DNA of 64,000 nt from Bilabrum cf. latius (GCA_965178125.1 OZ237760.1:620001-684000); one strand, 5' to 3'. Positions 1 to 64,000 are shown, counted from the first letter of the stretch. Program-made: numbers and translations. The notes: a model not told the origin generated them from the letters alone.

Positions 1-3000
1 CCGCAATTGCACTTCGCACCTATGGCGTGTCGTGTTGGTCTACGGCGGCGCATACTGCGGCCAGTGCACTAATGAGGCTTTCGATCAGGTTCGCCATGTT
101 GTGCTTAGTGCTGCGGCACCCAGATACACCGAGTGCCCTGACTGATCCAGTCGTGCAGCGGATGGCCTTGACGACGATATCGCAGATGACATCAACCTGG
201 AAACGTATCAAGCCTTGATCTTGTTTCTCCTGCGTTGTAGCGCTGCCACCGGAGCTGCTTGCGGCTGATAGTACCTAACAAATGCCGTCCAACTGCACCT
301 GGAGTGTCTTCATCGTGAACAGTAGCTACGAGCATAGCGATTGCTCGAGGTGCTCGTGAACAAGCCGCAGGTCGTGACTGCAACCTTTACCGGTCACTGG
401 TGCATCATCTTCGATCTCAAACTCACTGCCATGCGTGTGGCAATGCTGCCAGCAATCAGATCCGCCACTCGTTGCACCTAGGGCCCCCTCCCCTAGCTAG
501 CTTTCTCTTGCAGTAGCAGCGAGTTTCATGGCGTGGCCGAATTCAATGGCGCTGCATGTTTCAGCGACAGTGCTCAGCCAACCTTGCATCGCACTACCAT
601 CACGATACGGTTCAGATCTGCTCGCTGCGCGAACCATGGACCCAAATGAGCTGGAGCCACTCGCCTGTCCGTGCGACTCTCGGTCGCTAAATGAGATACC
701 AGCTGAGTCAATTTCGGGTGCAAGTATCTCACTTGCCCGCCGTAGCATGCGCACTGCAAGGTCAACCGAGTCGCAACTGGTGTGAAACGAATCGCTCCAA
801 CAGACGCCACGACCCGATGCACCCCCCGTATCGCGGCCGAGTTCGGCTGCACGTCCTTCTCTCAACATCTGCTGGTCTGCAGCTGCAGCTCCCAGCAGCT
901 TCCTCGCATTCCTGACGCAGAGGGTTGCCAACCGGTCTCGAAAGAGCGGCGGGGCCTGCTTGCTTGTAGCTGAAGGGGAATGATGCATGCCTGGAAGTGC
1001 CGGCAGGGGTGCCTCTCTTATTTCAACCGGTGAGTCTGAATACGAGGCCCGGAATGCTCCCTCCTTCTCTATGGACACTGCGTGCGCACCACTCGCACGA
1101 AACAGCTCAAAGATAGCTCCAAGTGGCATGGCAGACAAAGATTCCGCTGGAACCGAATCAAGCTGCCGGCGGAGTTCTGCGGATCGATCCGGCGATGACT
1201 GCGGTGTTTCCACAGCTGATTCCGCACGCTGTAGAATCCACTCGTGGCTGCTGTCCAGGTCGAGCAAGCCTACCAAGCTTAGAGTCACACCACGTGGATG
1301 AGATGCTTGATTGGTGTCGTCTGCGTACTGCTGCTTGGCTGTCTTTCGGTCTGATTTGAGGCTGTCGGGGTCGCTGATTCCGTCGTGGCTGCGTTGCAAG
1401 CTGAACACCCTCACAATCTAGCTGCCAGGCCGCCGAACAACAAAGTAGCTCTTGGATGCGTCGGTGCAAGCTCGGTGCAGAAACGCAGAAACATGGCCAG
1501 GGGTATCAGCACCGCTACCTCCACTGTGGTCCGCTCCTTCCTTGCCAATGCTATGCACCGCAGATCTGCGTGGTATCCCATCCTGTTCACGAGGCACGAT
1601 CGAACATTCGTCTTCGCATGTGCCCGCCGGCTCATCCACTGTCGATTCCACAGATGCGCTGGAGGGCAACGCCAGTGCAGGCAAGCCGTACGATCCACTC
1701 GAGGGCATTGCTTCCACGACTGGCGAGCTCCCGGCAAACTGGAGATCTAGATCAACGCCGACTGATGCAAACCTACCGCTTGGGTGATCGTTTAGCCATG
1801 CATCTAGCTAGCGCATGGCTCCGGCTGCGTTACTGGTGGAAGCCATGTGCCTCGAATCTAGGCTCCCGCGGAGGACCGCCGCGTGCTGCATCGAATGGTA
1901 TGCTAGCTGTGCTCGTCTTACCAACCTGCTTTGATCCCCTGGCACGCTGCCCTTCCGGGTACGCTGCGATGACCCCGTCCTAGTAGGATGCTACCCCGTT
2001 GCGGCGAACAAGCCGTTGTACTCGCCGCTTTTCCAGGCGTCTGCTGGCTGGGCATAGATCGACGATGCTGCGCTGTCATCAGATTCGAATCCGGACGCAG
2101 AATCTAGGTCAATACTGGCTCGTCGTGGGCTGTCAGGTGCAAGCGGCGGCCTAACTGGGTGACAAACGGCTAGACTCGCGGGCTGCACATCCATTGCACT
2201 GACCGATGGAGCCCCTATTGAAACACCTGCGCCAATCTTGCCCCTCGTGTGGTTGACTGCCGCCCCCTTGGCCTTGCCTACAACACCGTCTAGGTCGGTA
2301 GAAGCCGTCTATCCATCAGGCTATCTGGCAACTGGGCCTGTCGCCGGGCCTAAAGAAGCCTGCATGCCACGCTGAGACGCCTCGGTGGAAACTGCAGAGG
2401 CTGTTCCTACCGGTGAGCGGGAAGGCGGAGCATGGCGAGTGGTCGCAACATCAGAACTACCGTAAGCGGAAGAGGCAAGCGGGCCGTCTGATTCAGCACT
2501 CTGACCCCTCGTCTATTCCAGGTTCTGCTCGGCGCTTGAAGGCCGTTTCGTGTCGCTTGGTGGGGTTGCCTGCGCGGCTGCCGCTGACGGTTGCTGCTCA
2601 GTCTCAACCGGTACGCTGACTAGGGCTGGCTCCCGTGCATTGCCCTATGGTTTGACACCGTCACTATCTATGCTATCCGACTACGAAGTGGCGCCTGCCC
2701 CGGTCGGTTTCGATTGCTGGGCCCACGCAGCCCTGGCCAGGCGATCGAGCAAAGAGTGCTGCTCGCCTGCAGCCCCGAGCAGCTATCTCGCAAGCTGGCG
2801 CAAGACAGACGGAGAAGCAAACGAGTACTTGTTAGCAGGTTTATCCGAGATAAGTCTTTGACTACTCTTCAACATCTCTTGGATTGGATCGACGTGTTCC
2901 CGCGGATGCCTTGCTGATGGACCCACGTGGCGCAGCATGTGCCGAATCTCCCCATCATTCGCAACTATCAAGTGAAGCTGCTGCAGCAGCATTGCTTGGC

Positions 3001-3286
3001 TTTCGGTCGATCTGGATTTCGCGGAGCCAAGGACTGAAACCATCAAATCAGCCAGCTGCCGATGGGGAAGGCGGTCAACAAGCAGGGCATCGCCGCCAAG
3101 AGAGTGAACTGCGAGCACTCTTATGCCTGAGACAGGCATGTTCTCTTTCGGTGGTGATCTGTGCCCAGCATTGGTGGCTCCAATCGTGGCTTTATCTAAG
3201 AGCCGACCGGTGGTGGAATGCAGCACAGCCTCTGCGCCTTCTAGACCAGACTCTACCACAGATATGCTGCCTGAGGTTTGAGACAT
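1..3286 (-). CDS. Hypothetical protein, >1,090 aa, 3' end beyond the window edge; 13 in-frame TAG codons
   Basis: ORFs 2783-3286, 1991-2194, 1418-1717, 497-1414 and 20-211 share one frame. Manual reading of the gaps found only TAG (20, 275, 326, 497, 1418, 1808, 1991, 2309, 2321, 2513, 2645, 2681, 2783) and no TAA/TGA. ATG at 3286. No recognisable domain. Confidence 0.7.
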
Positions 3287-3507
3287 ATGGGATCAATCAA
3301 ATATTCCTGGTGTGCTTGTTCTTCTGCATTTAATTCGTCTGGGAGAGAGGCAACACCGATACCGGAATATGACCGGGGCGAAGAAGAGGCCACGTGGCCA
3401 CAAGCAGCAGTGGTTCTTGAGAACGAGCGACTCAAGCCAGGGTCACCAGCGTGGAAAATTTAGAGCGCAGTGTAGTGAATCATAGACAAACGATATGCAA
3501 GACCCGC

Positions 3508-5031
3508 TCAGCCCCTTCCGCGACCTGCCCGCTGCTGCCCACCTTTCGATCCCGGCCTCCGCCCTCCCTGCACCGGTTGACCACCTTGCGCCCTCGACGA
3601 CTAGATCTACGACCTCCCACTACCATGCGATGCACCCTTCGACACACCACCTCTCCCAGCAGCACCTTTGCCCCGCTAGATCCCTGCTGCCTTGCTGGCC
3701 TCTTCTACCGTCCACACGCGCTCCCCCACCGGAAGGCTCCCAGAGTCCAGTGCCCTCGCGAACTCGATCTCGGTGAACTCCAGGGCCCGAGCTGCCTCCA
3801 GATGCATCCTCTGCTGCTTCAGCAGGTCGATAAGCCTCATTTGTCTCTTGAAACCCTCCATCAGATGCGCCCGCTGTCTCTCAAGCACCCTCACCTGCTT
3901 CCTCAATGCATCCACACCCTGGGTCGCGTCGTGCACTGACCGCTTGCGTCGCTCCTGCTCCTGCTTTAATTGCTCCCTGAGAGCCTCACACTCCTCGGTC
4001 TTACGACGAAGACGGGTTTCCAGCAGCTAACGCTCCCGATCGCCTCCCGATGCTGCCTTGCGCTGCTCCCTGGCCGCCTGCTCCATCGACTTGGCCTCGG
4101 TCGTGGCCTGGCCGGCCCGCTATCTAAGTCGATCCGCTTCTTCCATTGCGCGGCGTCGGGCGGCTTCGCTGGTATCCAAGCGCTTTCTCAAAGCATCGGC
4201 GTCCCTCCTGGCCTCCCTCGCCGCACTCGTCACATCCTTGAGCCTCCGGGTTGCTGCCAGGCGGGCGGTCGTTGCCTCCCTAACATCGCCCCTCAAGGCC
4301 TCCGCCTCAGCCTGCAGGAGCCTCACGGCGGTCTCCGGGGGCACGTCTGGGTGCAACTGAAGGGGTGGGCGGGACGGCGCAGCTCTGCCCTGGTCTTCGG
4401 TGTGATGAGTGTAGGCGGACGCTGGCCTGGTGCTGCTCGCCTCTGTGCGCTTGGCACGCTTGGACGAGGTGTACCTGGATGACGCCAACAAGGCTGCCTA
4501 GCGCGATCCGTGTGCGTGATCCCCGGCTCCGCTGGAGTCTGGGTCGTTACCTTCATCAGATCTATCTGACCGTCCAGGTCTGTCTGGAACGCCCTATCCA
4601 CCAACACGCTGCTTCTGGGCCCGAAGTCGTCGCGCGCCGCCAGCTCTAGGCTTCGGTATAGCACTTGCTGGCATTTGTCCGGGCTTGCTTCTGCGTGCTT
4701 GCTCTGATACGGCGCTTTCACGCTACTCTTCGGCTGCATGTCTTCCGGTTGCAGCTGTGCGCCCGAAGGTTGCATGCCCTGAGTTGCTTGCATTGTTCGA
4801 AAGCGTAGATCCACCAACAGCACTCAGAAGCTGTTTAGCATATTCTCGATCATCTGCTGTAAGCTCATCCGCCGAATCGAACAGCGTGGCTTGGCCACTT
4901 GTGGACGGTTTGAATGCAGCATTGCTGGCAGTGCCTGCGTCGCGGTCTAGCTCCTCATTTAACCTACGCAGCTATCGTTCTCGGTCTATAACCGACTGCG
5001 GCATACGCATCACGCTATCATCTTCCTCCAT
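3508..5031 (-). CDS. TEX9: TEX9-like coiled-coil (centriolar/ciliary) protein
   Basis: The C-terminal LMEGFKRQMRLIDLLKQQRMHLEAARALEFTEIEFARAL matches the conserved TEX9 C-terminus. The N-terminal ER*LRRLNEELD resembles the TEX9 N-terminal helix. One frame runs from ATG 5031 to TGA 3508 with 9 TAG and no TAA/TGA. Confidence 0.8.
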
Positions 5032-5341
5032 TCTAACCTGAAGCGTGATTCTGTCGAACTGCAACTTGTGTTGGCGCCGCGCACATATCGATGTTGCGGA
5101 ACTATACGGCTGTGGACTTGTGGACGGCCATGACAAACAAATTGCTTAACAGTACAAGGTGGGCCCAACGCGCCGCTGAAACAAGTCATCATGTCCTGCA
5201 GAACAACCCGGTGATCACTTTCTCGAACACCATGACCGCGCCTAGCACAAGAGCAATCGCCTCGCTGAACGACCAGGTGAGGCCCCCGGCAACCCCTGCC
5301 ACCGACAGGTCGGGCACCACCAGCTTCAATTCGCCGTTCCA

Positions 5342-7646: not shown

Positions 7647-7817
7647 GGTTTTTTGAGATACGAATGGATCGGGTCCCGCGGGTGGGCCCATGATGTGGTT
7701 CCGTATTTGCGCGGCGCCTATAACCGAGCACCTCCTTCGGAATTGGCCAGACTGTGCAGACAGCAAGTCTATTGATAGCATCGCCGATATTTTTGCTTAC
7801 TTTCCGCTGATTTTATC

Positions 7818-10800
7818 ATGAGCTCTGGCCCGGGGAACCGCAGCCTCCCATTCTCTGTGTTTTGCATTCGTTTAGAACGAATACTGGAAGTCAAGAAGTC
7901 GGGGTCCCGGTCGATTCAAGATAAACGACGAGCAATCCTGTTCCCCAAAAGTATGATTGAAATGTGGCGGTCTTGGCCTGCTGATGCCGAAGCTGGAACC
8001 GCTCGGTCTGATGATCCCGCCGGAAGCGAACTGGCCCCAGAACGCCAAAGCATAGGTGACATCGCGCCGTATATTCGGCTACTGCTGCCGCAAGAATCAC
8101 ACAGAAACTTTGGTATGAAAGAAAAAAGTCTTGCAGCTGCATTCGCTAATGCGCTCTAGCGAAATAGCCTGCAGAAGACGCTTGAAGATGCAAAAAAGTA
8201 CATTGGCAACTTTGGCGCTGCCGTCGAGAAGTACGTGGACGCCGCTGGAGAGCGCTCGCTGTTTCGTTCGTACCGCCCAGACATTCGTAGTAAGGATATT
8301 CTCGAGGCGTGGAAGAAGCCGCGTCGTCGGGGGGTCCTCACCGTGGCAGAAGTGGACCACATGCTGCATCGGCTGCATGTGGTGAATCGATCGGGCAGCA
8401 ACACAGACAAGTCGGAGAAGCGCTAGGCGATCATGCGAGAGGCGGTCCGGGCTATGGCCCCGTGGGAGCTCAGGTGGTTTGTCAGCATCATCCTTAAATT
8501 CCTACACATTAAGATGGACTATAGAAGCATCCTTCCCGCCCTCCACCCCGACGCTCTCACGGTGTTTCAAAGCAACGCGGACCTTAATGATGTCTGCTAC
8601 AGTGAGACGCTGCGCGACCCCACCCAGAAAGCATTCAGCAGCGTGAAGCCATTCAACATGATCATGCCAATGCTGGCGGAAAGGGTGCACTCCAGGTTGG
8701 CACAGTCTGAGCATGAGACCATGCGCCGGGCATGTCTCTGGTTCACAAAATCATACGATGACCCAGCTGCGGGTGGCATGGCTACCACTGGCGCTGCTGC
8801 CATGATGGACGATTTCGATGGCCTGTTGGGAGACACGGGCGCAGGGCCGATCGAGGAAGATGATGAAGAGGCAGTCCGCACGCGCGATCTTGGCTGGTTG
8901 CAGAGGCGCCACCAGGGTGGTTTCTTTGTTGAGGACAAGCTGGACGGGTTCAGACTGTTGATCCACAAACGGCTGCCACTAGCTGCTGGCGGTGGGGCCT
9001 CCTCAGCTCCGACTGCGTCGTCCTCATCATCCTCTGCTGCTGCTGCAGCTGCTGCCTCTGGACCATCACAGCCTGGTCTGCTTGCTGGGGTTGGTGCCTA
9101 GTCCGAAGTCATGTGCTTTAGTAGGATGCGAATCGTAGAGAGCAAGTTCTGTGCAGTTTTGCAGGACCACGTTCGGCAAAGCGTACGAGCTGGTGATGCC
9201 GTGATCGACGGCGAGCTGCTGGTGGTGGACGCGTCTGGCGTCCCTTTGGACAAGCAGCTGCTGCGGCCGGTCGCAGGCGTAGAAGTGGAGGCAATCAAAT
9301 CGCACAGGGAGGGTCATACCGGTAGCTCCTCATCAACTTCGTCCTCGAGCTCATCCGCAAAGCCGTCGCCATACAGACATGGTGCATCGCTTGCGGCTGG
9401 GACTGGCTTCATGGGCGGCGGTTTTGGCGGCGTGTACGGCGGGTCACAGGGCGAGGAGGAGCCCCTCCTTCCGGCTGGTGCGCCCATCGATCCCATGGAT
9501 GACGACTTTTAGCGACTGCGGGGCCTCGCGTGGAGCAAGCGCGGTCAGTCCGATCCTGAAGGTGCAGCGAGGGCAGGCAAAGCAGGGCGCCTATCTAAGA
9601 GAAAGCAGCCGCGCAAGCACACTACCATGCGCGTAGCGCAAGAATTTGGTCCTGATGGCGACATGGGCGCAAGCATGCTGGCCGAGCGTGGCGACAGTGA
9701 TGATCGTGACGAGGACGCCGATGAGGATGAGGACAAAGACGAGGCCGGTGGGAACAAGGCAGCCGCGGGTGGCAACGGCGACTTCAACTGGGACGCGGCC
9801 GGCCTGCACCTGCAGCACGTGGCGTTCGACGTGCTCTTTGTAGATAAATGGGACGAGGGCAGGATCAAAGCAGAGTGCAAGCCTGGCCTAATTGCCCAGC
9901 TCGAGCTCCTGAGGAAGACCTCGGGGGCGCAGAAGGGCCAGCTGCCCACGGGTGACCTCACTCGACTGCCGCAGTGGCAGCGCAACATCCTCCTGCGAGC
10001 CTTGGTACGGCCCGCCCCGGGGCGTATCCACCTGCACGAATCCACTTGGGTCAGCTCTCACGCACCACGGGAGGTGCTGGACAGCCTGCCAGCCGGCAGC
10101 AGCGACATCGACATCATGGCTAGGCACCTAGGCATGCTGTACACCAAGGCAAGCGAAGCAAAGCTAGAGGGCATCATGCTGAAACGATCCGATGCCACGT
10201 ATGAGCTCGGTGATCGCTCCAGGAAGTGGCAGAAGCTGAAGCCGGAGTACGTGCCTGGCGCCATGGACACACTCGACCTGGCGGTCCTGGGCGCATGCTA
10301 CAGTTCGGGCCGGTCTGCCGGCCGCAGGGGGCTCACTGGACTGACTCACTTCATCGTCGGCTGCAGGGTTGAGTCTCCTGGGGAAAGGATCCGGTTTGCG
10401 CCGTGTGGGAGGGTCGGCACGGGGTACACGTTTGATGAGCTTCGTTAGATCCAGACGAGGCTGACCCGCTGCATGGTGCAGAGGCAGCTGCCGCCCGGTG
10501 CCAGGCGATCCGGAGCTGAAGGCTCTGCAGATCTGCCAAAGGAGCTGTTCGGCGAGTCGCGGTTTACTCCCGACCACCAGCCCGACTTTTACGTGAGGCC
10601 AGAGGCGATCCACAACACCGTGGTGGTGGAGGTAATGGCATCGCAAGTGCGCGAGTCAGACGAGTTCGGTGCCGGCTTCACGCTGCTCTTTCCACGGGTA
10701 GAAGATGTGCGTCGTCCGCAGGTGGGGTCGGCAGAGGTAGATGCAGTGGACGAAGATGGTAGTATGCAGGCCGTCAGCTTGCGAGACCCGAGAGACAAGG

Positions 10801-12584: not shown

Positions 12585-12712
12585 GTATGAATGCCAAGCA
12601 GGGCAGGCCTAGTAAGTTGGCGCCGGAGCACCCGATTCTGATGCAGTTGCTACGAAAGTATCCATTTTTTGTTCACACAACTTCAAACTCTGCAACAGCC
12701 TACTACAGGAGG

Positions 12713-14677: not shown

Positions 14678-14825
14678 CGAAAGGCTTGTTGAGCTCGCTT
14701 TGTCCTGGTGCAGCTGACCGCTGATGTTAGTTCCGCAACCGTCGCGCGCGGCGCCCCAGCAGAAAAGTGCACGCTACGCTTTCATTGCACTTGCCTGATT
14801 CCGGCCATCGCGGCCGAGCAAAAAC

Positions 14826-22778: not shown

Positions 22779-22847
22779 CTGCTCTTGAAATAAGCGCTAC
22801 AACTACTTGGGGCGTCATATTGTCCTCTTTGACATCCTTAGGGCTCC

Positions 22848-32333: not shown

Positions 32334-32566
32334 ATTGCTGGAACTTCGATCTGAAATCTCCGAAACCAACGGTCTGTAAAATTGCAATTCCGAGTTGTTG
32401 ACCGGCTGCATGCACTGGTGGCCACTGACGGGCAGAGGTGACCCTGTGTGTACGATGCGTAGTCACGACTTCGATCCAAGCGTGATGGCAGGAAACGCGC
32501 CAATTGTATTAGAGAGTATGCATTGCAAGCACGGCAGCACTGCTGTAGGCCTAGAGCCAGCACTGG

Positions 32567-39574: not shown

Positions 39575-39841
39575 GGTGGGAATCCAAATCGATGCGGTGG
39601 CTCAAGCTGTATGCTTATGCACGTCAGTTATAATCAGAGTCCCTTCGAATGGTGGATTAGATAGCAACGAATTGTCGGTGCAAGCGCGCGGCGATTCTAC
39701 GTATGTTGCGTGTAGTTTTGCGAGTTGCAGCGGCACGCAAGTGGTTCGGAGTTTCCATCGATTCTGCCACATGAAAGGACGCATGTTAACCGTAGCGAAC
39801 AATTTCCAGCAATTAAGCGTACTAGATATTAGTTTTGTTAC

Positions 39842-50465: not shown

Positions 50466-50649
50466 GAGTACTGCTTTCCTTCGGTCAAACAGCTACATTG
50501 CGTCTTGGGGAATGCAGGCAGCAGTTTGCCCCCCGAAACCGGAACCAAAACCGGAATTCAACAAATGGACAAGGGTTCCTCATCTGAGTCCGGGTTTTGT
50601 TACGATGTAGTGAGTGCAGCCTCGTACTTACGGCCCGAAGCCACAAGCA

Positions 50650-53307: not shown

Positions 53308-55018
53308 TCACTGCCCACCAAGCACCCGCTTGCAGATGTCCAGCATCATGGTCGGGCGGTCCGACGGGGCCATGTGTCCCGCCGACAGCACGTAGTACAG
53401 CCAGAGGTTCTTGTGGTTCTGGACGAACGCGCCCGTCTGTCTGGCCGAGGGATCCGTGTTGGAGGGGTACAGCGGGGTCTTCTTCTGGTTGTAGAAGGGC
53501 TGCATGCCCTCCCACGTGAGCTTCTTCATCCAGAGCTCGGCGCCTGTGGTGCAGCAGATCAGGTCCAGCTGGCCCTCCAGCACGTGCACCGGGAAGCCGC
53601 GCTCCAGAAGGGCCTCCACCTGGCCGATCGAAGGCTTCATGAAGTCAACGGATAGCTCGGAGAACACGTCGCCAGACTGCCCTCCCCACGACACGCCGTC
53701 CGGGATGGAGAATCCCGACTTCCCGTTGAGCTTGGTCTTGACCGGGCCGTTCATCAGCTGAGACAGCGACTCGGCGTGGTACCTGCCCAGGTGCCTGGCG
53801 CGGGCCAGCTCCAGCTCGGGGGTGGCCATGGGTGCGCTTCCCGCCAGCACGCGGGAGAAGTCGGCAGACGCGAGGCCCTTGCCGACAGCCACTCCCAGCG
53901 CGGTGGCCCTGCCCGCGTCCAGGCCTTGTTCCCTGGTCAGGGCGGCGGCGGCGGAGGCGGAGGCCTCGTCGTCGGGCGCGTTGTGCTTCAGGATGTAGTA
54001 GAAGTCCACGCCGTCTGCGTTCTCTTCGATCACGTTCTCGGCCTGCCCCCACAGCTTGCTGGCGTTGGCCCACTGCCCCGCCTGCACGGCTGCAGTGCAC
54101 GCCTCGGAGGTCTTCTGGTAGTCCTCGAGCTCGTACTCGTTGAAGAGGCTCGTGCTCTTGAGGAAGGGTCCCCACGCGTTCACGTAGTCGATGCCCGAGA
54201 TCCACGAGTCGCCCAGCTCCACTCCCTTCAGGTTCAGCTTTAGCTTGCCCGCGTCCACCGCGTCCAGGAGAGTGCGGGCCGTCTCGCTCGTCACCTTGCC
54301 GCCGTACGACTCCGAGAAGATCCAAAGCGGCTGCTCCGCGGCGCTTGGGTACAGCTTGGTGGAGAATTCCTGCCAGAAGGCGAGCAGGTCGTCCGCGACC
54401 TCCTGGTTCGTGGTAGCGTAGTCGTTCTGGTTCTCCACGTACGAGAAACCGGTGCCGACCGGGGAATCCTGCGATAGTGAATAACGGTGGCTATCTTGCC
54501 AAAGACCGGATGGTGCAACAAGCTAGACACTAACTATCCCTGGTCTGATGGGAAACACGCGCTCACGACAAACAGCAGGTTCGCCTGCGAGGCCCAAGTC
54601 GTATTGCGAGGGTCCAGGTTCACATCGAGAACTCCGATCTCCTCGAAGTTGCCGAAGCCAGTGCTGCTGGCTCCGGGGCCACCTGCGCAGAAGAAGCTAG
54701 CGATGAGATCGAAAAGCGTGCCGCTTGCTTTGGCGGCGCGCGGAGTCTGGATTGCTCGCTTGCTGGCCTAGTTGCCTCACCTTGATGCCACTGAATGATT
54801 GGTTCCGACGTACGCTGCGCTGGGGAGCTACCCTGCTTGCCATACAACCACCAGAACAGGTGGCATCCGGGCCGCACCTCAACGTAACCCCAGTCCTCGT
54901 CTGGAATGCCAGCAGCAGCCATGCTGGCTGCGGCGTCCAGCCGGGCACGCACTTCATTGTGAGCCGCAGCAAGAATGCTGCCTGCCGCAAAAAGCATTGC
55001 TGAAATTGAAGCTCTCAT
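53308..55018 (-). CDS. SCPEP1: Serine carboxypeptidase S10 (SCPEP1/RISC-like); 3 exons
   Basis: Signal peptide; WGYVEVRPGCHLFWWLY; WHQG|GPGASSTGFGNFEEIG; LLFV|DSPVGTGFSY; ESYGGK; GDSWIS; DFMKP; GQLDLIC; AGHMAPSD. Introns at 54683-54780 and 54469-54566; TGA 53308; no TAG. Confidence 0.93.
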
Positions 55019-55279
55019 GACTGATATATGATCTGAACTGCGACGAGCCATTCGCGGAAGGAACGAACCCCAATATCTGCTTTCCGAACGTTCTCCGATG
55101 TCGGATGCCCGCAATGGGCGTGCGCTGCTGTCTGGCGGTGGGTCCAGATACCCGCGAAACAAGCAATTTATAGGCTTAGGATATTGTTTGTTTTCCCGCT
55201 AGCTGCATATGTATTCCACTGCTGCTCGACCGGAACTTGCGACCACGAGGATCGGATCAAACAAACGAAGCGAGCGAGC

Positions 55280-58200
55280 ATGGATCACAAGAATTCCGAA
55301 ACACTTCAATTCACTCGAGCTAAGAGTTGTGAACTGGGTACTATGTTGTGCGTGTTTTAGCCGGCATTCCCCTTCCGTGGTGCAAGCCAACAGGACAAAG
55401 TGCTGAGGCACGTTGAAAGGCTTCGACGACTGGAAGCACCGGGACGGCGCCACAACCTTGCTGCCTCAGCAACGCAAACACGAACGCCAATCCTCACCGC
55501 AAACGATTGGATTTTAAGCTTAACAGATAGTGAATTGCCCGATTTGATACGAACAGGCCACGTTGACTTGAGTGTTTCAACAGACTTGCTGGCGTCAATG
55601 CGAACACAAGGGCTGGCAGCAAGTGAGCACGACATTGTACGTAGTTTTGGAGATGAATTGCCGGCACACACATCTGATCTAACGGATATACTAAAGGCTG
55701 GAAACATTCAGTACGATTCACACTTGGCTGAGGTCGTGGAGGTGCCTTTCGCAATCGCGGCTCGGCTGCCACTGCTGCCGCAGCGAGCACGCAGCAAAGC
55801 TGCTGTCGTGCCAGTTGAGTTTGACCCTATTTCTCTCCATGGCCGATTGGAAGCGCTTCACATGGTTGAGCAAGGCAAGGTTGAGCTGGTTGAAGCTGCT
55901 AGATCGGCAGTAGTCGAGTGGATCACGAGCAACGAGCTTGCGGTTGCAGAGGCGCTGGAGACTCTGCACGAATAGAGTAGGCTCAACCAGGCAGAACCGC
56001 CAAGCCAGCGTGTGTTTGATGTTGAGCCATCGCTGTCGATGCAGTTGTCTGCTTGTATGTCTGGCAGTGTTGACGTGGCCAGCGCAGTAGAATCTGTGCG
56101 GTGCCTTCCTGCGGCAGGGGCAGGTGAGCGCCAGCGGCAGTACAGAGACACAAAAGACCATCCAGCTCTGGTAGCAATGATCAAAAGTAACCGAACAGTT
56201 GATCAAGTTGGTGTGGCTCAAGTACATTCTAATGGAGCCTGGACTGAGGCAGAGTGGGATGCCAACGCAAGCATCCTTGCTTGTCTCAGCTCTCCGGAAT
56301 GGTACCCGAAGAGCGCACGTCTGGACTCGGAGAACGAAGCAAATGCCATTTTTGAGCATCCAACTAGCTGGTTCGATGATTTTAATGCTTAGTACTTGCA
56401 TCAAAGGTCGCTGTTTCTGCCCCTGGGCCCGCTGGGAGCCGACCTGCAGCTGCACGCGCCGCCCGGTGCCGGCTTGGTGCATAGAGCGGTGCTGGATTCC
56501 CGCGCAGCTTCATCGATGATCTCATAGAGTGCCCTTACCCAAGTTGAGCGTGCTGCTGAGCAGGTATTTACTTGCATCACGGATGACTCGCTGCCGCACA
56601 TCGAGGCGAACCCCTACCGGCTGGCACCTCTGCTCAGCCTAGCGACACCCAGCAGCGTGACCCAGTGGGGTGCGACAGCGAAGGCTGGATCGTTTGACCC
56701 CCTAAGTGCTCTCAATAGTAGCATCCAAGAGAATGGTGTGGCAGCAGGTGTTTCTGCGGTTGAGGATGAGGATGAGGATGCCAAGACGGATCCGGCCGAG
56801 TACACGGCCAGCCTGGGCAAGCTCAGGTCTCCAACTCCACACCTAAGGGAGGGCATGCACTTGGCTGCTAGGCAATAGGCGATGCAGGCCGGAGTTTCTG
56901 CAATCGACATGCGCACGGCGTTACTGCGTGGTGCATCCACGCCTTCTGAGTCACCAAGCACGGGCTGGACGGCATTCCCCAGCATCGATCTGTCCATCCG
57001 CACCGGACGCGCCCACAACCGACAGACCCCTCTCGATGCGCTGATGGCACAGGAGCAGGCACGAACCGGCGGGAGTTCTTCCTCTCACGCGCCGAGCACA
57101 ACGTCAACTCTTGTCCTGGCAGATGCAATCTTGGCACCTCACGCGACGTGCGCCAGTGCCGGGGCCAGCGGCATCCAGGATGATGCCACAGGGACGACCG
57201 CACTTGCAAGGTTCGAGCTGATCGGGTCGAGCGACGTCATGGCCGAGCAGCTGCTATAGCAGTCGTCCACGAAAGCAAGCTCACATACGGCCTACCGGCA
57301 ACGTCCAAAGCAACCGCACAATAAGAAGTCCGACAAGCAAGGAGAGGATCACCGAGGTCCCGCAGCGACCGCCATCACCGCACCTGCAGAGCCGACAAAG
57401 CCGCCTGCTACCAAGACGATCGGTTCGTTCGCCGATCACGTACCGAAGTCCAGTCGTGATCATTCCAATGCTCCGTCTACTCCTATTCGTGGCATGGCGG
57501 CTCCAGCAGCTGCGTCCGCCGCGTCGGTTCAGAGCTACGTGTCTCGCATGAGCTCAACAAGCCGACGATCCGCCAGGCGAACCACCGAAAGCCCGCTTCG
57601 GCAGGACACGCCGAGAAATGTGGCGACTGACAGCGCTGCCAACCAAGCGGAGCGGTGGCTCAATGTGCCGCATAGCCCAGCCCCGATCGACATCGCGAGT
57701 CCAGCATCGCACCATCCTGCGAGCGTGGCGCACTCCGTATCATCGACGTCGTCGCATGCAAGAAGGGTAGCACAACCAGCTGAGCCAACAATGGCCCCAC
57801 TTGAGCTACCGCCTGCTAGTAGGCTAGTCCTATGCAACGGGACTACTGCCGATGGCCTTGCGGGAAGCAGCCTTGGGCAGGTTGCTGGACACCGGTCCCA
57901 GTACGCCGCGGCATCCCGGCGATTGGACAGGGACCGCAGGTTCTCATCCCTGATCGAGATCGACCGCGAGGCTGCAGTGCTGTGCGTCCATGGAGATCGT
58001 TTTGATCCCGCCCAAGCAAAGCAGCATGGAGCAAGCACCCTTCACGAAATATGCGCAACGGCGCGCGACTACCCCTGGCTGCACGTGGTGCTGCTACTTG
58101 TAGGACCCCACGTCGACCAGCTCTTTGACGCGTTCAACTCGCTGTCGGCAATGGTTTCCGCACTGGGGTTGGAGTCCGTGCAAGCCGAATTCTGCTTCTC

Positions 58201-59923
58201 CAAGGAACACGTCAAGCAGCACGTGGATCGTGCGGTGCGCAGTTCGATACGGAGGTCTGCGGCTGTCGCATAGAGCGAGACGGATGCAGAGCTGCGCTCC
58301 ACGCTGCTGGACCACAGCGAGTGGAAGAATCCCAAGGAAGGAACGTGGGAGCAGTTTCTTGCGAGCCTACCCGGATGCGGACCAACAGCCGCGCAGGAGG
58401 TGCTCACAGGGTGGGATGCAGACGGAGATGGCAACCTGGGCGGCTGCATCCTGGACTTGCAGCAGATCCCGATCGAGACGATTTTGATGCAAGCATCCGT
58501 GCCTCCGTGTGGGAATGTTCTGTTTGCCGGTGGGATCAAACGTGCGATCTCATTTTGCGCAACCGAAGAGCCAGGGGAGCTGTACGAGCGCGTAGTCACA
58601 GGCGTGCTCGCAGATGTTGCGCAGCTGGCCAACCAGCAAGCCGCAGGTAGAGCCAATCAGGCGGCATCTGTGCCGCATCGAGTGCGCCGCTAGACATCGT
58701 CACTGGATGCACCAGTCATTCTGAACGCAGACCCTCGGCCACCCGCGCAACCCCGAGACAATCGGAGTAAGCTGTCGCATTCAGGTGGCGAGCGCAGCTA
58801 CAGCACTGGTGAACCGCGCTTGATCGAGCCCCCAGCGAACGAGACAACCGGTAGGCGTAGTCCCGGCGGACATGCAACCGCAACACACGCTCCATCGCAG
58901 ATTCATCAGGGAGGGCGTCCAGCAGGCGCAAGTGATCGTCTGGAGCACCTGTTGCACCGGCCGCTAAGCGATCTCTCGCAGCATCCTATACACAGCATTA
59001 CCCAGCACCGTCCTGCATCGAGCAGCTCATTGGCGCTGCCACAAGATGCAGTGCATCATGGAGCGCAAGCCGCCCATAGCATGTGGAATCAGTCGCCTAT
59101 AGGGCAACCGTAGTACACAGCCCAGCGAAGCTAGCTGCAGACGATGCAATCCATGCGCCCGCGCTATGAATATGCCGTCTCTCCACGCTCGCACGCCCGA
59201 AGCCCCCAGGGAATCGGCACGCAAGCTACCCGTCGCAGACTTGGAGCCATGCTAAGCGGCGGGGTCATGCAGAGCCCCGGCCCGCAGGCATCAAGTAGAG
59301 TACCTGCAGCGATTGGTTACGGCTAGCCAGCAGCACCACAAGAAGCGCGGAACGACCATCTGCGCTCTCCAGGTGTCAGTAGCCTTTCAAGAGCACGCCA
59401 GCTCGCGTTGTCATCCAGACCGACGAGTGCTATCGGCGCACTGCGACCCTAGTTTGCGTCTGGCCACCACCCGCAGCTGTCATCCGGTCGATACTCAGGA
59501 CAGCAGCACGAACACTATGGGTATCGGCCGTCGGTTCCGCGCGATAGACCAGGCTCCCGCTCCCAGTCTATGGCAGGCTCGTCTGGATGGCATATGCCGA
59601 GCGATTCTTCTGAGGCGCCGCATGGACACGGACATCCCGATCACAGAAGGTTGTCCCACGCAGTGGCCTCGGCCGACAGCGGCCTGGGCAATCAAGGGAG
59701 CGTCAGTAGGAGTGCCAGAGCTTCACAAGCAAGGGGTGGGGCGCCGGGCACAGGCTCATGCTCGGAATCGGTGGCGCACAGCTCGGAGGAGCACGTTCAC
59801 CTGTCAGGCGTGCGCGTCTAGTCCGGTACGGCAACCCCGGAAGAGGTAATGAAGCTGCGAAACAGGCGGCTGGGGGTAAGCGCGGGCAGCAAGGGGGGCC
59901 AGAGTCGCCTGCAGTGGTCGTGA
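55280..59923 (+). CDS. SHOC1/Zip2-like (XPF/ERCC4-like + HhH) putative meiotic crossover protein, ~1,547 aa
   Basis: Nine ORFs in one frame separated only by TAG (13 in total). ERCC4-like segment (LIEIDREAAVLCV...YPWLHVVLL), HhH-like EQFLASLPGCGPTAAQEVL and C-terminal RRLGV...GGQSRLQWS then TGA resemble SHOC1 features recalled from memory. The size is similar to SHOC1. Confidence 0.55.
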
Positions 59924-60107: not shown

Positions 60108-63100
60108 TCATTGGTCCTCCTCCCGATGCCGTTTTGACCCAACTGGTAGGTTCAAAGTAGCACCTGCCGGCTGCTGCTATCCCTTCGAATTGCTAGCAGT
60201 TGTCGAAGCACCATCCTAGACGGGTGAGTTGTAGTGCACCGTGCGCCTCGCTTTCGACGGCCGCTCAGTCGAGGACTCAGCCGAGCGAGCCTGGATCTGC
60301 ACGGCAGCCTGCTGTGACTGCGCCGCTCCAAATGCGCCTGCTTGACCTGCTGTAGCAACTGCACCCCGCGGCGATACATCTCCCTTGGCAGCCATGCGCC
60401 ACGCCGCTGCTGCCACCTTTCTGGACATGGCGTTCAGCAGTGCCACCCGCTCGCTCTCGGTGCTGGCTGCCTAGCCAGCGCCAGCGCTACCCCTCGCACC
60501 CGTGGGTAAGGTATGAGGCTGCTACGCAGCCGCCATGGGCTACACAGGCATCTGGGCCGATGGATTCGTAGGCAATGCCACGGCTAGCCTATGACGTTGC
60601 TGCGCCACAGGGCCTGCTTGCGAAGGAGCGGTGATGCCGGTCCTACCAGCTGCCCGCACAATCTGTGGTGCGGCAGCTGGACCAGCTCGAGCGAGATTCG
60701 GCTCCGTTATCGCCCTCGGTCGCTTGTGGTGGGACACGCTCCGATTCGGCTGGCTCGGCTGCGACGCATGCTTGGCTGCGCTGATGGCGGTGCTAGTGCT
60801 CGTGCTTGTCGCACGGTTCGGTGCCACGGTGCCGATCGCGCGATAGGGCTGGAGGTGTACCTGGGCCACGAGACCAGCGACACTAGCACAGGGCAGGCCC
60901 CGAGGCACCATGAGGCTGCCATCGGCCCCAGCCGTGGAAATCACGGGCGACTCCGAGTTGTTGAGCACGTCAGCCATGCGCCGCTCCAGCGCCAAGTGCG
61001 GGTTGTTCGGGTCGTCTGTCTCGTCCTCGTCGTCCACGTCGGCGTCGACGCTCCTCTGGATCTAGGCAGCACCAGGCACGTACTGAGTGAGCGACAGACC
61101 GATGCGGCTTGCAGAGCCGATCGAGAACGTGTTTGATCTAGAACGACCCCCCCTGCTGCGCCGCCCTCCCCGCCCTCGCCTCCTCAGCTGTGAGCTGCCC
61201 CAGGTGAGCTGCTGCTGCCCAAGGGGATCGTCCTGTGCGCCCGTGCCTGACGCCGAGGCACTTCCCGACACGTGCGCCGCACCGACGCTCGAGTCAGCTG
61301 ATAGCCCGACGGGACCGTGCCTGTTGGTCTGTGGCCCAGACCCTTCCAAAGTCCCGCTGCCGCTGACGGCACCTGCCAGTCGCCGAGCCGCCAGCCGGAA
61401 CTGCTCAATGGCTGCACCGCGGGGCGAAACGAGCTGCCCGGCTCCGCCGCCCTCCTCTTCTTCGTCTTCGTCTTCGTCATCATCCGACATGCCCCCTGCC
61501 ACTTCGTCAAATTCCTGACCATCTCCCGAACCGCCGCTGCTGCGTCCCTCCACGTCGCTGCCCTCGTCCTCGTCCACTCGGGACAGGAGGGCCCGCTGCA
61601 GCAGCCTCGCGGTGCGTCGAGCTCTCGAGCTGCCCCCATCGGACACCGCATCCAGTCCGCCGCTGGGACCTCGCACTGGGACCGACGCCGGCCGGGAGAG
61701 CCCGTGCTGTTCGTGCTGCTCACCGCCGTGTGGGATCTCGCCCCCACCACTGCTGGAGTCGGTGCCTGCACTCCGCTGGCGGCTGGGTACCGCGGGCCCG
61801 AAAACATCCCGGCTGTCAGCTCTGCGCCTGGTACCCGACACGCCCGCCACATCGGCGGGGGCCGTGCGCCTACCGCTGAGCAGCTCTTCTCCCTCCAATG
61901 CCTCCAGGTCACCTGCGGCGGCCTCCTCGCTGAGCATGGTGCCTGCCATGGCCAGCACGCTGCCGACCTTCTCTTCCGCATGTCTGTCGTTCTCGCTCAT
62001 CGCAGCTGCCGGTCGAGTCCACGCAAGGAGACCCGGCTGCGCCCACGACGACGAGGAGGACGCCAAGCCAGCGCCGGCCCGCCCGTGCCCATGCATGTGG
62101 TCCATGAGGCCGTGGCGCTGCTTGGGCGACGGCTGCGCCCTTGCGCCCCGCCTGCCCTTATCAAGCGAAGCCGCGGCCGACGGCGCTCCGTCGCTGCCAG
62201 ATGCAACTGATCCAAAGGCTGGGGGATGGGAGTGCAGCTCACCGTTCAGCTCCCGGGAGAGCCCTTGAGGCTCCGGCGAGCCCCCGCCGCTCGCCATCAC
62301 GGCCCCTCCTTGCCCCTCGCTACCCATCTCCAGGTCCTCCACGACGATCCAATCGGCCCCTTCTGGCACCTCGTCATCCAGAGTGGCCACAGGGGAGGAC
62401 GCCAGCTCCAGCATGAGCCCACTCGATGCGGCGTGGAGAGTGTTGGGGCGCCGTGGTTCCGTGGCAGCGGCGCCGGTCCCGATGAGTGGGGGTCGGTGAC
62501 CGGCGCGGTGGCCCGGAGTGTGGGTTCCGTGGTGGTGATCGTTGAAGTCCCCCGCGCCTGCCCTCTCCAGCAGCAGCTGTCTCGGCGAGAACGGGGGCAC
62601 GCCTGCGATACGGGCGCAGAGGTCCAGCTGCTGCCACACCTGGGCTCCAAAGTGCTGCTAGCACAGCCTGCTGTCCGCACCGGGCCCGTTGTCCAGCCCC
62701 TTGCTCCTCGGAGGCGACCTCAGTCCCAGCCCGCTGAGATGTCTTTGCTCCTCACGGTACTCTGTGAGGAGGGTCCCCATAGCCGTGCGGGCCGCTTGCA
62801 CGCACTCAACCGCGGTCTGCTGCAGGTGCATTCGGTTCACCTCAGACATGCCCTTTCGCTTGAGACCCTGCTGCAGCGAGTACGCAGCTCGCACCGCCGA
62901 GTCTTGCGCCACCCTGCTGGCCATGAGCACCTGTTTGTCCACCCTCTCGAGCACCCTGTCCTCTAGAGCCAGTCCTGCGACTGACAGCGGAGCGCCGACA
63001 CCGGTAGACGAGAATGCCTGCCCGCCCATGGGCAGCTGCAGTCGGATACTGCCGGTGCTCGACCCATTTGGTGCGCGATACTGCCCCCCTTTCGCGCTGG

Positions 63101-64000
63101 ACGAGGTGCTGGTTGGCAGGGAAGCAGCCGTGGAGGCAGTCGTAAGGCCTCCGGTGGTGACTGCATTGGCGCGACCCACGTTGATCCGCAGCGCTGGCAC
63201 TTTGGAACGACCTGCGCCCGAAGAAGCAGCAGCAGCAGCAGCAGCAGCGACGGCTGGGGGGCGGCCTCCTCTCCCCGACTTCCCGGATTTGCCAGTCTTC
63301 CCGGCCTTACCGACGACTGCCCCCCCCTTGCCCTTGCCCTTGACGGTGCTCCAAGCAGAGCCTCCCCTGCCTCCCTGCTTGCGCCTGCTGCCGATCCCGG
63401 CGCTGCTGCGGCCGCTCCTGCGGGCGGCCAACCCAGCCGCAGCCGGTGGCGCGCCTGCTCCTGTGCCGTTCCACACGCCCGTACTTGCCCTCCCAGCGCG
63501 AGTTGGCAGTGACGGGGCCGCGGGACCTGCCCCTGAAACCAGCATAACTCCTGCCCCCGCAGCCGCACTCGCACCGACCACTGTTGTCGCGCTGGCTGCA
63601 GCCCTCTACTCCGCCGATGCCGCCATGAGTTCGCCGATTTCAGGGACGTCGCCGTGCGCTGACCCCGCGCTGGCCGACCTGTGGTTGTACCCGGTTCCAT
63701 TCCTTGCGCCTCCACCGCCCCTACCTCCTCCTGACGGTGACAGCCGCAGCACGCCAGTACCCAGTGGCGGACCCCTGGTGAGCGGCCTGCCCTCCACCAT
63801 CTCGATCAGCTCGTCAGTGCCCGTGTCTACTTGCCCTCGGCCCCTGCATTCTGCCGCGCGCTTGTGCAGCTTCTGGATGTACTTTTGCGCGTGCGTGCGG
63901 ATCTGCACGACGGACCTGGTTGGTACCAGGCCCTAGATCTGCTTCCAGTCCTTCCCGTAGGTTCGCAGGCCCTCCACGAACGTATCGTGCTCCACATCAC
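60108..64000 (-). CDS. SHAQKYF-class single Myb domain protein with a long low-complexity C-terminus (5' end beyond the window)
   Basis: EHDTFVEGLRTYGKDWKQI*GLVPTRSVVQIRTHAQKY, with TAG 63933 inside the Myb domain. One frame to TGA 60108 with 9 TAG and no TAA/TGA. Confidence 0.85.

What the first reader, a model, noticed from the sequence alone, without database searches (positions are those of the whole stretch)
1..64000. Non-standard nuclear genetic code: UAG is a sense codon (Gln) across the whole window
Seen in the sequence: 19 of 21 genes run through in-frame TAG codons (about 125 in total). This includes essential genes and positions inside catalytic or folded domains: the Nudix box (23319), kinesin motor (27153), Myb domain (63933), ligase core and PIPK domain. 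Frames up to 7.8 kb contain only TAG interruptions and end at TGA or TAA. Established knowledge: UAG-only reassignment to Gln matches NCBI table 15 and is rare in nuclei (reported for the fornicate Iotanema spirale and a few ciliates). Inference: this organism looks like a stramenopile-type protist, a group for which I know of no such code, so this may be an independent, undescribed reassignment.
Basis: partly seen in the sequence, partly recalled or inferred. Interest (0 to 1): 0.97.

Follow-up and report, generated by a model that had tools for sequence, protein, structure and literature searches.

The report
Nuclear code reading UAG as glutamine
This stretch comes from a GC-rich, intron-poor protist whose nuclear genes use the normal stop codon UAG as a glutamine codon while UAA and UGA still end genes, a rare kind of genetic-code change that seems to sit in a lineage where it has not been reported.

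Summary
With TAG read as sense, the window opens into 14 long frames of up to 2602 codons. Reading TAA as sense changes nothing. These frames hold 120 in-frame TAG and no in-frame TAA or TGA. All 13 closed frames end in TGA (10) or TAA (3).

TAG means glutamine. In 120-homologue alignments made with TAG masked as X, three TAG sites fall in Gln columns: 120/120, 118/120 and 74/120. Close relatives carry CAG or Q at four more sites and N at one.

Contigs of runs from three studies carry the same TAGs with no differing letter, no indel and no splice across them. At least two relatives share the trait.

The lineage is only weakly placed. One P4-ATPase tree puts it in a clade whose only named member is the stramenopile Cantina. 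It is not ciliate-like.

Seven literature searches found no such case outside Iotanema and some ciliates. The tRNA-Gln(CUA) and eRF1 could not be examined, because no genome is held.

Verdict: a new lineage with a known code variant (table 15).

The parts
12716..14677 (-). Sulfite oxidase CDS (Cyt-b5, Mo-binding and Mo-co dimerisation domains). Starts at the first ATG inside the gene-sized contigs and ends in TGA at 12713-12715. Holds 4 in-frame TAG.
   Evidence: Pfam E 2.6e-54, 2.7e-32 and 4.3e-16. PDB 1sox E 3.6e-107. Contig pieces 12652-14691, 12683-14664 and 12655-14694.
12917..12919 (-). In-frame TAG in the Mo-co dimerisation domain (context YQV-X-PES).
   Evidence: The column is Q in 120 of 120 homologues. 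It is Q in chicken sulfite oxidase 1sox.
13274..13276 (-). In-frame TAG at the start of the dimerisation domain (context DLPI-X-GQ).
   Evidence: The column is Q in 74 of 120 homologues; the rest are T 23, I 9, V 7, N 6, L 1. It is Q in 1sox.
34946..39415 (-). P4-type phospholipid flippase frame, ending in TGA at 34943-34945. Holds 3 TAG inside the domain span and 1 upstream. It has one in-frame GT..AG intron at about 38750-38937, and the N-terminal exon is not resolved.
   Evidence: Pfam PhoLip_ATPase_C E 5.8e-48 and three other domains. Intron ends read.
38132..38134 (-). In-frame TAG in a transmembrane segment of the flippase (context IFAF-X-LVLV).
   Evidence: Q in 118 of 120 homologues, with 1 gap and 1 I. 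CAG in relative L002, context 18/21 identical. Q in P0124.
36647..36655 (-). Two in-frame TAG codons, 36653-36655 and 36647-36649 (context RAGA-X-N-X-SD).
   Evidence: Both are Q in P0121, a protein 1013/1059 identical to the window's.
24729..32462 (-). DENN/dDENN plus kinesin-motor fusion gene of 2577 codons with 12 in-frame TAG, ending in TGA.
   Evidence: Pfam Kinesin E 4.9e-66 and DENN E 1.3e-15.
27153..27155 (-). In-frame TAG in the kinesin motor (context PRSI-X-FLLQQL).
   Evidence: Aligned with Q of KIFC3 (5wde), the best PDB hit.
14799..22607 (+). Frame with a weak seven-transmembrane match followed by a phosphatidylinositol-phosphate kinase. 2602 codons, 19 in-frame TAG, ends in TAA. 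The first ~150 codons (7 TAG) may be 5' leader.
   Evidence: Pfam PIP5K E 2.9e-69; 7tm_1 E 7.8e-4, below the cut-off. One contig of run X5 covers 14799-22675 with no differences and no gaps.
22833..24587 (+). Nudix hydrolase frame ending in a hydrophobic tail. 4 TAG, including 23319-23321 in the Nudix box. Ends in TGA.
   Evidence: Pfam Nudix_hydro E 2.5e-20 and NUDIX E 3.3e-17. The box TAG lies in a variable column: W in 4zb3, G in 3h95.
7776..12584 (+). ATP-dependent DNA ligase (ligase IV-like) frame with long insertions. 9 TAG, ends in TAA.
   Evidence: Pfam DNA_ligase_A_N, A_M and A_C. Human LIG4 E 2.5e-24. The TAG sites lie in variable or gapped columns.
60108..63998 (-). SHAQKYF-type Myb protein frame, open at the window end. 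9 TAG, including 63933-63935 in the Myb domain. Ends in TGA.
   Evidence: Pfam Myb_DNA-binding E 1.3e-8. PDB 6nvz E 6.2e-13. The column reads K, S or A in the three hits.
2..3292 (-). Frame with no known family, open at the window end, with 13 TAG. The TAG at 2783-2785 is Q in a relative and the TAG at 1418-1420 is N in a relative. A relative's called protein stops just before the TAG at 497-499.
   Evidence: No Pfam match. P0247, P0248 and P0246.
3508..5145 (-). Coiled-coil-like frame with 9 TAG, ending in TGA. It has the highest TAG density (16.5 per 1000 codons).
   Evidence: No Pfam match.
39377..42778 (+). Low-complexity frame with 13 TAG, ending in TGA. Its counterpart in relative L002 is a 429-codon frame with 7 in-frame TAG.
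47967..50579 (-). Frame of 870 codons with no family match and 6 TAG, ending in TGA.
50650..52605 (-). Wntless-like membrane protein frame with 2 adjacent TAG in the acidic tail, ending in TAA.
   Evidence: Pfam WLS-like_TM E 8.1e-36.
53308..55014 (-). Serine carboxypeptidase S10 frame. 2 TAG lie upstream of the matched part. Ends in TGA.
   Evidence: Pfam Peptidase_S10 E 1.1e-49, matched only from profile position 92.
55037..59923 (+). Frame of 1628 codons with no family match and 13 TAG, ending in TGA.

Best explanation
The window is nuclear DNA of a GC-rich (about 0.60), gene-dense, intron-poor eukaryote. In its genetic code UAG has been reassigned from stop to glutamine, while UAA and UGA remain the only terminators. 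This is the pattern of NCBI table 15.

Shown here:
- TAG occurs in frame throughout conserved and non-conserved genes, at about 7 per 1000 codons, or about 14% of all Gln codons.
- TAG sits where homologues and close relatives have Gln.
- It has no fixed sequence context.
- It is never needed as a terminator in this window.
- It is shared by at least two related taxa seen in environmental and other public data.

Inferred from how such codes work elsewhere, not tested here: a tRNA-Gln with anticodon CUA (or an efficient near-cognate tRNA-Gln) decodes UAG, and eRF1 has lost or weakened UAG recognition while keeping UAA and UGA.

TAG is rarer in genes with high GC3 (2.7-3.5 per 1000) than in genes with low GC3 (11-16 per 1000). 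That fits a minor, probably slowly decoded codon that arises mainly by CAG-to-TAG transitions.
For: (1) Frames. Only TAG-as-sense opens the window. In frame there are 120 TAG against 0 TAA and 0 TGA. Out of frame in the same DNA there are TGA 569, TAG 280 and TAA 106. 22 TAG are flanked by Pfam matches in the same frame.

(2) Identity of the residue, always with TAG masked as X:
- Sulfite oxidase columns are Q in 120/120 and 74/120 homologues, and Q in 1sox at both.
- The flippase column is Q in 118/120, and CAG in relative L002 with 18/21 identical context.
- Two further flippase TAG are Q in the 96%-identical P0121.
- The kinesin TAG aligns with Q of KIFC3.
- The TAG at 2783 is Q in P0247.
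- Over the 5 well-filled homologue columns, summed log-odds are Q +13.8 bits and the next residue T -7.6.

(3) Stops. 10 TGA and 3 TAA end the 13 closed frames. Reading TAA as sense too adds only 24 and 2 codons to the two affected long frames.

(4) Not an error.
- A 49-kb and a 10-kb contig of run X1 match 12600-32500 with 0 differing letters.
- So do gene-sized contigs of X5, X6 and X7, which come from two further studies. There are no indels and no joints over TAG sites.
- 34 of the 40 in-frame TAG in that stretch lie in the listed X5 pieces.
- Contigs of two studies stop at the same gene borders (12652/12655 and 14691/14694) where X1 runs on.

(5) Shared trait. L002 (P4 exon 308/372 aa identical) has a 429-codon frame with 7 in-frame TAG. 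The called proteins of P0121 and P0246 begin or end at window TAG sites.

(6) No context motif follows TAG.
Against: - One well-aligned site (TAG at 1418) is N, not Q, in relative P0248.
- Sites in the Nudix box (W, G), Nudix N-domain (V), ligase (D or gaps), Myb (K, S, A), DENN (gap or C) and two sulfite-oxidase linker columns are variable. They give no support.
- Q is only 1.38-fold enriched next to TAG, less than Y, C and I.
- No tRNA gene of any kind is in the window or in L001/L002. No genome is held. So neither a tRNA-Gln(CUA) nor eRF1 was seen.
- The library type of runs X5-X7 is not on record, and the tool's guess for X5 is 'probably DNA'. Retention of UAG in mRNA is therefore likely but not proven.
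- There is no protein-level evidence.
- Only 13 gene ends were examined, so occasional use of TAG as a terminator elsewhere in the genome is not excluded.
Confidence: 0.93

Rival explanations
1. Ambiguous code. UAG is translated as Gln inside genes but also ends translation in some genes, depending on its position near the 3' end. This happens for reassigned stops in Condylostoma, karyorelict ciliates and Blastocrithidia.
For: Only 13 gene ends could be examined. The listed gene-sized contigs end only 4 nt after the Nudix stop, and just inside the kinesin frame's end. The 3' ends are therefore poorly defined. Ambiguous codes are documented in the abstracts listed.
Against: 0 of 13 closed frames needs TAG as its terminator: 10 end in TGA and 3 in TAA. 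Sulfite oxidase and the PIP kinase run past their last TAG through conserved C-terminal segments to TGA/TAA, with contigs continuing 61-68 nt beyond. The Nudix frame runs through its last TAG to a hydrophobic tail.
Confidence: 0.06
2. UAG is not formally reassigned. It is read through at high efficiency by near-cognate standard tRNAs (Gln-CUG, and possibly Tyr, Trp or Lys), giving mostly Gln but a mixture. There would be no dedicated suppressor tRNA, and eRF1 would still compete.
For: No tRNA-Gln(CUA) was seen, because none could be looked for. One site aligns with N and many with variable residues. TAG is depleted in high-GC3 genes, as expected for a poorly decoded codon.
Against: The density is about 7 per 1000 codons in every frame, with up to 19 TAG in one gene. 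That would make full-length product vanishingly rare unless decoding is near-complete. No read-through context follows TAG. The three strongly conserved columns are all Gln. The trait is kept across relatives of 78-96% protein identity.
Confidence: 0.04
3. Artefact or decay. The TAGs would be assembly or sequencing errors, pseudogenes, unrecognised introns, or sites edited to CAG in the mRNA.
For: None found. The RNA nature of runs X5-X7 is only a guess by the tool, so editing is not strictly excluded.
Against: - Only one of the three stop triplets occurs in frame: 120 TAG against 0 TGA and 0 TAA.
- Contigs from three studies carry identical letters, with no indels or joints at TAG sites.
- TAG falls exactly in conserved Gln columns inside folded domains.
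- Relatives carry their own in-frame TAGs.
Confidence: 0.01

Closest known systems
UAG-only reassignment to glutamine ('genetic code 15', NCBI table 15). Reported in the fornicate Iotanema spirale, the ciliate Protocruzia tuzeti and twice within phyllopharyngean ciliates (PMC11687900, Discussion passages read; 'genetic code 15' as named in the abstract of PMC9523058, listing).
   Same: UAG is in frame in ordinary nuclear genes and aligned with Gln, and UAA and UGA are kept as terminators.
   Different: The host lineage differs.
- The window is about 60% GC, with long genes that have few or no introns.
- No ciliate protein is among the best 120 hits of either search.
- A P4-ATPase tree groups it with the stramenopile Cantina.
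- It encodes a cytochrome-b5 sulfite oxidase with an N-terminal presequence-like extension. By inference this fits an aerobic mitochondrion, unlike an anaerobic fornicate.
UAR (UAA+UAG) to glutamine codes (table 6 type): many ciliates, ulvophycean green algae, Hexamita, Streblomastix, Amoeboaphelidium protococcarum (PMC11687900 and PMC5304391, passages read).
   Same: A stop codon is captured by Gln decoding, and CAG/TAG interchange occurs between relatives.
   Different: TAA is not sense here. There are 0 in-frame TAA in 17,011 codons, and 3 frames end in TAA. Reading TAA as sense barely lengthens any frame.
UAG-only reassignments to other residues: Leu in the rhizarian exLh and some ciliates, Ser in Scotinosphaera, Glu with UAA=Lys in an uncultured ciliate (PMC11687900 passages; PMC10553269 abstract).
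   Same: UAG and UAA have become uncoupled.
   Different: The residue is different. Log-odds over homologue columns favour Q by more than 20 bits over any other residue. L appears in 1 of 120 homologues at one site and S in none of the top counts.
Ambiguous stop/sense codes: Condylostoma, karyorelicts, Blastocrithidia (abstracts listed).
   Same: A standard stop codon is translated inside genes.
   Different: Dedicated terminators (TGA, TAA) end all 13 closed frames here, and no TAG terminator was needed. Dual use of TAG elsewhere in the genome is untested.

Membership tests
NCBI table 15-type nuclear code (UAG = Gln; UAA, UGA = stop) | In-frame UAG inside conserved protein-coding genes | tested here: met
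   120 in-frame TAG in 14 frames. 22 are flanked by Pfam matches in the same frame.
NCBI table 15-type nuclear code (UAG = Gln; UAA, UGA = stop) | UAG positions correspond to glutamine in homologues | tested here: met
   Gln in 120/120, 118/120 and 74/120 homologues. CAG or Q in close relatives at 4 sites and N at 1. Q in KIFC3. Log-odds Q +13.8 bits against -7.6 for the next residue.
NCBI table 15-type nuclear code (UAG = Gln; UAA, UGA = stop) | UAA and UGA are not translated and serve as terminators | tested here: met
   0 in-frame TAA or TGA in 17,011 codons. Terminal codons are 10 TGA and 3 TAA. TAA-as-sense gives no gain. This covers the window only, not the genome.
NCBI table 15-type nuclear code (UAG = Gln; UAA, UGA = stop) | A tRNA-Gln with anticodon CUA (or another tRNA able to read UAG) | not testable with these tools
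   No tRNA gene in the window, L001 or L002. No whole genome is held.
NCBI table 15-type nuclear code (UAG = Gln; UAA, UGA = stop) | eRF1 with altered stop-codon recognition | not testable with these tools
   eRF1 is not encoded in the window.
NCBI table 15-type nuclear code (UAG = Gln; UAA, UGA = stop) | UAG present in mature mRNA (no editing, no splicing out) | tested here: inconclusive
   Gene-sized contigs of runs X5-X7 (two studies) keep all covered TAGs with 0 differences and no joints. The runs' library type is not on record, and the tool guesses 'RNA?' or, for X5, 'probably DNA'.
NCBI table 15-type nuclear code (UAG = Gln; UAA, UGA = stop) | Gln found at UAG positions in peptides | not testable with these tools
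   No proteomic data are available here.
Ambiguous stop/sense code (Condylostoma/karyorelict/Blastocrithidia type) | The reassigned codon also terminates genes near the transcript's 3' end | tested here: not met
   0 of 13 closed frames requires TAG as terminator. The sample is small and the 3' ends are poorly defined.
   In the P4-ATPase tree the window and two relatives (100%) sit inside a 99%-supported 18-row clade whose only named member is Cantina marsupialis. Amoebozoa, plants, Capsaspora and Anaeramoeba fall outside it. In the sulfite-oxidase tree the window is an unplaced long branch. No rRNA is in the window.

The most novel reading that the evidence does not exclude
This is an independent, so far unreported origin of the UAG-to-Gln nuclear code in a stramenopile-affiliated, Cantina-related clade of GC-rich heterotrophs. 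The clade would contain at least three or four taxa already present, unrecognised, in public metagenomes and run assemblies: the window organism, P0121 at 96% protein identity, L002/P0124 at about 80%, and perhaps the more distant source of P0247/P0248. It would be the first stop-codon reassignment known in stramenopile nuclei. It would also be a rare case in which UAG and UAA are uncoupled in a high-GC genome.
Probability: 0.45. Interest if true: 0.82.

Novelty: new member of a known kind. Interest (0 to 1): 0.72.

Why it matters
Changes of the nuclear genetic code are rare. Cases where UAG and UAA have different meanings are rarer still; the Discussion of PMC11687900 lists only a handful.

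A new, non-ciliate lineage with this code adds an independent data point for three questions:
- how stop codons get captured;
- whether capture depends on low use of the codon in a GC-rich genome;
- how eRF1 and tRNA-Gln co-evolve.

There is also a practical consequence. Every standard-code annotation of this organism and its relatives is fragmented. The database proteins P0121, P0246, P0247 and P0248 are pieces cut at TAG sites. Such genomes are therefore under-recognised in metagenomes and need table 15 for gene calling.

Tried and rejected
- The window has no tRNA and no Rfam match. L001 and L002 have no tRNA.
- The homologue search with the DNA ligase found nothing at E<=1e-10 among 8000 candidates. 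Low-complexity words probably dominated, and the search was wasted.
- PDB alignments for ligase, Nudix, Myb and DENN put their TAGs in variable or gapped columns, so they are uninformative about the residue.
- Neighbour-residue test: Q is enriched only 1.38-fold beside TAG, so it is not decisive.
- The sulfite-oxidase tree did not place the organism.
- The TSA prefix of the EukProt hit P0126 could not be tied to a species. Two searches found 0 papers.
- The representatives search with the 1097-aa unknown frame gave only 3 hits.
- Sequencing runs: no RNA holder is listed.
- Contig depths were not used to rank genes, as the tool forbids.
- One joint in an X5 contig (18795 to 31440, 21 letters on the short side) was treated as a chimeric contig.
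- L001 (44% P4-ATPase homologue) reads open under the standard code, so it is not part of the TAG-sense group.
- Considered and rejected: TGA as sense. Its longer frames (maximum 1018 aa) are the usual GC-rich noise and do not follow the Pfam-matched genes.
- Supplementary files of papers were not consulted. They might list further UAG=Gln taxa.


Full report
**What is in the window.** The 64-kb window is about 60% G+C with no N. It has no tRNA gene and no Rfam match. No whole genome is held for it.

Under the standard code the longest stop-to-stop frame is 611 aa. If TAG alone is read as sense, the window resolves into frames of 2602, 2577, 1628, 1602, 1490, 1296, 1133 and 1097 aa and more. 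Reading TAA as sense changes nothing. Reading TGA as sense gives only the scattered medium frames expected in GC-rich DNA, with a maximum of 1018 aa.

Nine of my 14 long TAG-sense frames carry ordinary eukaryotic domains in the right order:
- a ligase IV-like DNA ligase;
- a cytochrome-b5 sulfite oxidase;
- a PIP kinase behind a weak seven-transmembrane match;
- a Nudix hydrolase;
- a DENN-kinesin fusion;
- a P4-type flippase;
- a Wntless-like membrane protein;
- an S10 carboxypeptidase;
- a SHAQKYF-type Myb protein.

At least one canonical GT..AG intron is present in the flippase. This is nuclear eukaryotic DNA.

**The observation.** The 14 frames hold 120 in-frame TAG, or 117 in the 17,011 codons after the first ATG. 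They hold no in-frame TAA or TGA. Out of frame in the same DNA the counts are TGA 569, TAG 280 and TAA 106. Random decay would therefore have produced about twice as many TGA as TAG.

The count of coding TAGs is an upper bound, because start codons are unknown and two frames begin with probable leader sequence rich in TAG. A conservative count is 22 TAGs flanked on both sides by Pfam matches in the same frame.

The two 7.8-kb frames are as described. I did not delimit 21 genes, so '19 of 21' is confirmed only in spirit: all 14 long frames carry at least two TAG.

**Which amino acid.** All comparisons were made with TAG masked as X, so the alignments could not be pulled towards Gln.

Sulfite oxidase:
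- The two TAGs in the dimerisation domain align with Q of chicken sulfite oxidase.
- Among the 120 best homologues, these columns are Q in 120/120 and in 74/120, the rest being T, I, V, N and L.
- Two TAGs in linker regions fall in variable or gapped columns.

Flippase:
- The transmembrane TAG is Q in 118/120 homologues.
- It is CAG in the related metagenome contig L002, where 18 of 21 surrounding residues are identical.
- Two further TAGs are Q in P0121, a database protein 1013/1059 identical to the window's.

Other sites:
- The kinesin-motor TAG aligns with Q of KIFC3, the best PDB hit.
- In the unknown frame 2-3292, one TAG is Q in P0247 in a well-conserved stretch, and one is N in P0248.
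- Over the five well-filled homologue columns, summed log-odds are +13.8 bits for Q and negative for every other residue, the next being T at -7.6.
- Sites in the Nudix box, Nudix N-domain, ligase, Myb and DENN domains lie in variable columns. They are neither for nor against Gln.

In total, of eight sites with a trustworthy context, seven are Gln and one is Asn.

**The other two stop codons.** All 13 closed frames end in TGA (10) or TAA (3). Making TAA sense as well lengthens the two affected long frames by only 24 and 2 codons. CAA makes up 20% of CAA+CAG. If TAA were a Gln codon used in proportion, roughly 29 in-frame TAA would be expected in these frames, and none is seen (the expectation is my arithmetic). 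TAG has no conserved downstream context, so a read-through signal is unlikely.

**Is it real DNA and real mRNA?** I laid contigs of four public runs on 12600-32500.
- Run X1 bridges the genes with 49-kb and 10-kb contigs and 0 differing letters.
- Runs X5, X6 and X7, from two other studies, give gene-sized pieces with 0 differing letters, 0 indels and no joints at TAG sites. Examples are 12652-14691, 14799-22675 and 22751-24591.
- 34 of the 40 in-frame TAGs of this stretch lie in the listed X5 pieces.
- Pieces from two studies stop at the same places (12652/12655 and 14691/14694) where X1 runs on.

The library types are not on record, so retention of UAG in mRNA is likely but not proven. Assembly error, however, is excluded.

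**Relatives.**
- L002 is a 3.6-kb metagenome contig with GC 0.545. It is syntenic with the window, and its P4 exon is 308/372 aa identical. Its neighbouring frame of 429 codons is open only with TAG as sense and has 7 TAG.
- The called protein P0121 starts just after the window's TAG at 38132.
- P0246 (82% identical) ends just before the TAG at 497.
- P0247 and P0248 are short pieces from contigs of up to 11,336 nt.

Standard-code gene callers have evidently cut these relatives' genes at stop codons in the same places. By contrast L001, a 44% flippase homologue, reads open under the standard code. The trait therefore belongs to a small clade, not to one strain.

**Who is it?** No marker gene is in the window.
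- The best named sulfite-oxidase hits are oomycetes at 45-46%, but animals and algae score almost as well. The tree leaves the window on an unplaced long branch.
- In a P4-ATPase tree the window, P0121 and P0124 form a 100% group. That group lies inside a 99%-supported clade of 18 rows whose only named member is the stramenopile Cantina marsupialis (EukProt name). Amoebozoa, plants, Capsaspora and Anaeramoeba fall outside.
- No ciliate protein is among the 120 best hits of either search.

A stramenopile affiliation is thus plausible, but it rests on one gene and one named taxon.

**What is known.** The Discussion passages of PMC11687900 list UAG-only-to-Gln codes in Iotanema spirale, Protocruzia tuzeti and two phyllopharyngean ciliate lineages. 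They list UAG-to-Leu in a rhizarian and UAG-to-Ser in Scotinosphaera. PMC5304391 (passages) gives Amoeboaphelidium as UAR-to-Gln.

Full-text searches combining UAG, glutamine, genetic code and reassignment with stramenopile(s), protist, Codetta or Amoeboaphelidium returned no paper describing such a code in a stramenopile or in any organism resembling this one. For those hits I saw listings and abstract starts only. Papers outside that library, and supplementary files, were not seen.

**Mechanism.** It is shown that UAG is decoded as Gln, that UAA and UGA terminate, that there is no context dependence, and that the trait is inherited within a clade. The rest is inferred from other reassigned codes and was not tested: a tRNA-Gln(CUA), probably derived from tRNA-Gln(CUG), together with an eRF1 that no longer recognises UAG efficiently.

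TAG density falls from 11-16 per 1000 codons in low-GC3 frames to about 3 per 1000 in the highest-GC3 frames (flippase, S10 peptidase, Wntless-like). This fits a minor codon that arises by CAG-to-TAG transitions and is selected against where codon bias is strong.

**Verdict.** The finding is real and correctly interpreted. It is a known code variant (table 15) in what appears to be a new, non-ciliate, possibly stramenopile lineage with several environmental relatives. The lineage, the tRNA and eRF1 basis, and protein-level proof remain open.

Noticed in passing
window 38750-38937 (- strand): An in-frame intron of about 190 nt with GTGAG...CAG ends interrupts the P4-ATPase between the conserved 'IPLL' and 'AVIFGITAVKE' segments. 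The true N-terminal exon lies further upstream (blastn to L002 matches 39047-38933 and 39574-39415). Introns therefore exist but are few.
   Followed up: partly
window 53308-55014 (- strand): The S10 carboxypeptidase frame matches Pfam only from profile position 92 onward. The upstream part of the frame, which holds 2 TAG, looks non-homologous. The N-terminal part is probably on another exon, or the start is mis-set.
   Followed up: no
window 14799-22607 (+) and 24729-32462 (-): There are two unusual fusion architectures. One is a weak rhodopsin-type 7TM match followed, after more than 1000 low-complexity residues, by a split PIP5K domain (a GPCR-PIPK-like bigram). The other is an N-terminal DENN/dDENN module fused to a C-terminal kinesin motor.
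   Followed up: no
all 14 frames: TAG density falls as GC3 rises: 2.7-3.5 per 1000 codons at GC3 0.78-0.82, against 11.5-16.5 per 1000 at GC3 0.56-0.62.
   Followed up: partly
window 12600-32500, runs X1-X7: Identical sequence is held by runs filed under three different coded organism labels (A, B, C) in three studies. Either the labels differ for one organism, or it travels as an associate or contaminant of other cultures.
   Followed up: no
window 14692-14798: The divergently oriented sulfite-oxidase and PIP-kinase genes are separated by only about 108 nt between the ends of the gene-sized contigs. Other spacers (22676-22750 and 24592-24733) are similarly short. The genome is very compact.
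   Followed up: no
protein cluster of P0131: A flippase in the sister group of the window's clade is 90%-clustered with a protein labelled Symbiodinium sp. KB8. That record may be a contaminant from a different protist in that assembly.
   Followed up: no
L001 (metagenome contig, 12,875 nt): This contig is a 44%-identical flippase homologue with 1715- and 1351-codon frames that are open under the standard code. It is a useful standard-code outgroup for dating the reassignment.
   Followed up: partly
window 43074-44243 (- strand): A 390-codon frame with GC3 0.78 has no in-frame TAG. It was not characterised. It overlaps a + strand frame at 43150-44034 with GC3 0.85.
   Followed up: no
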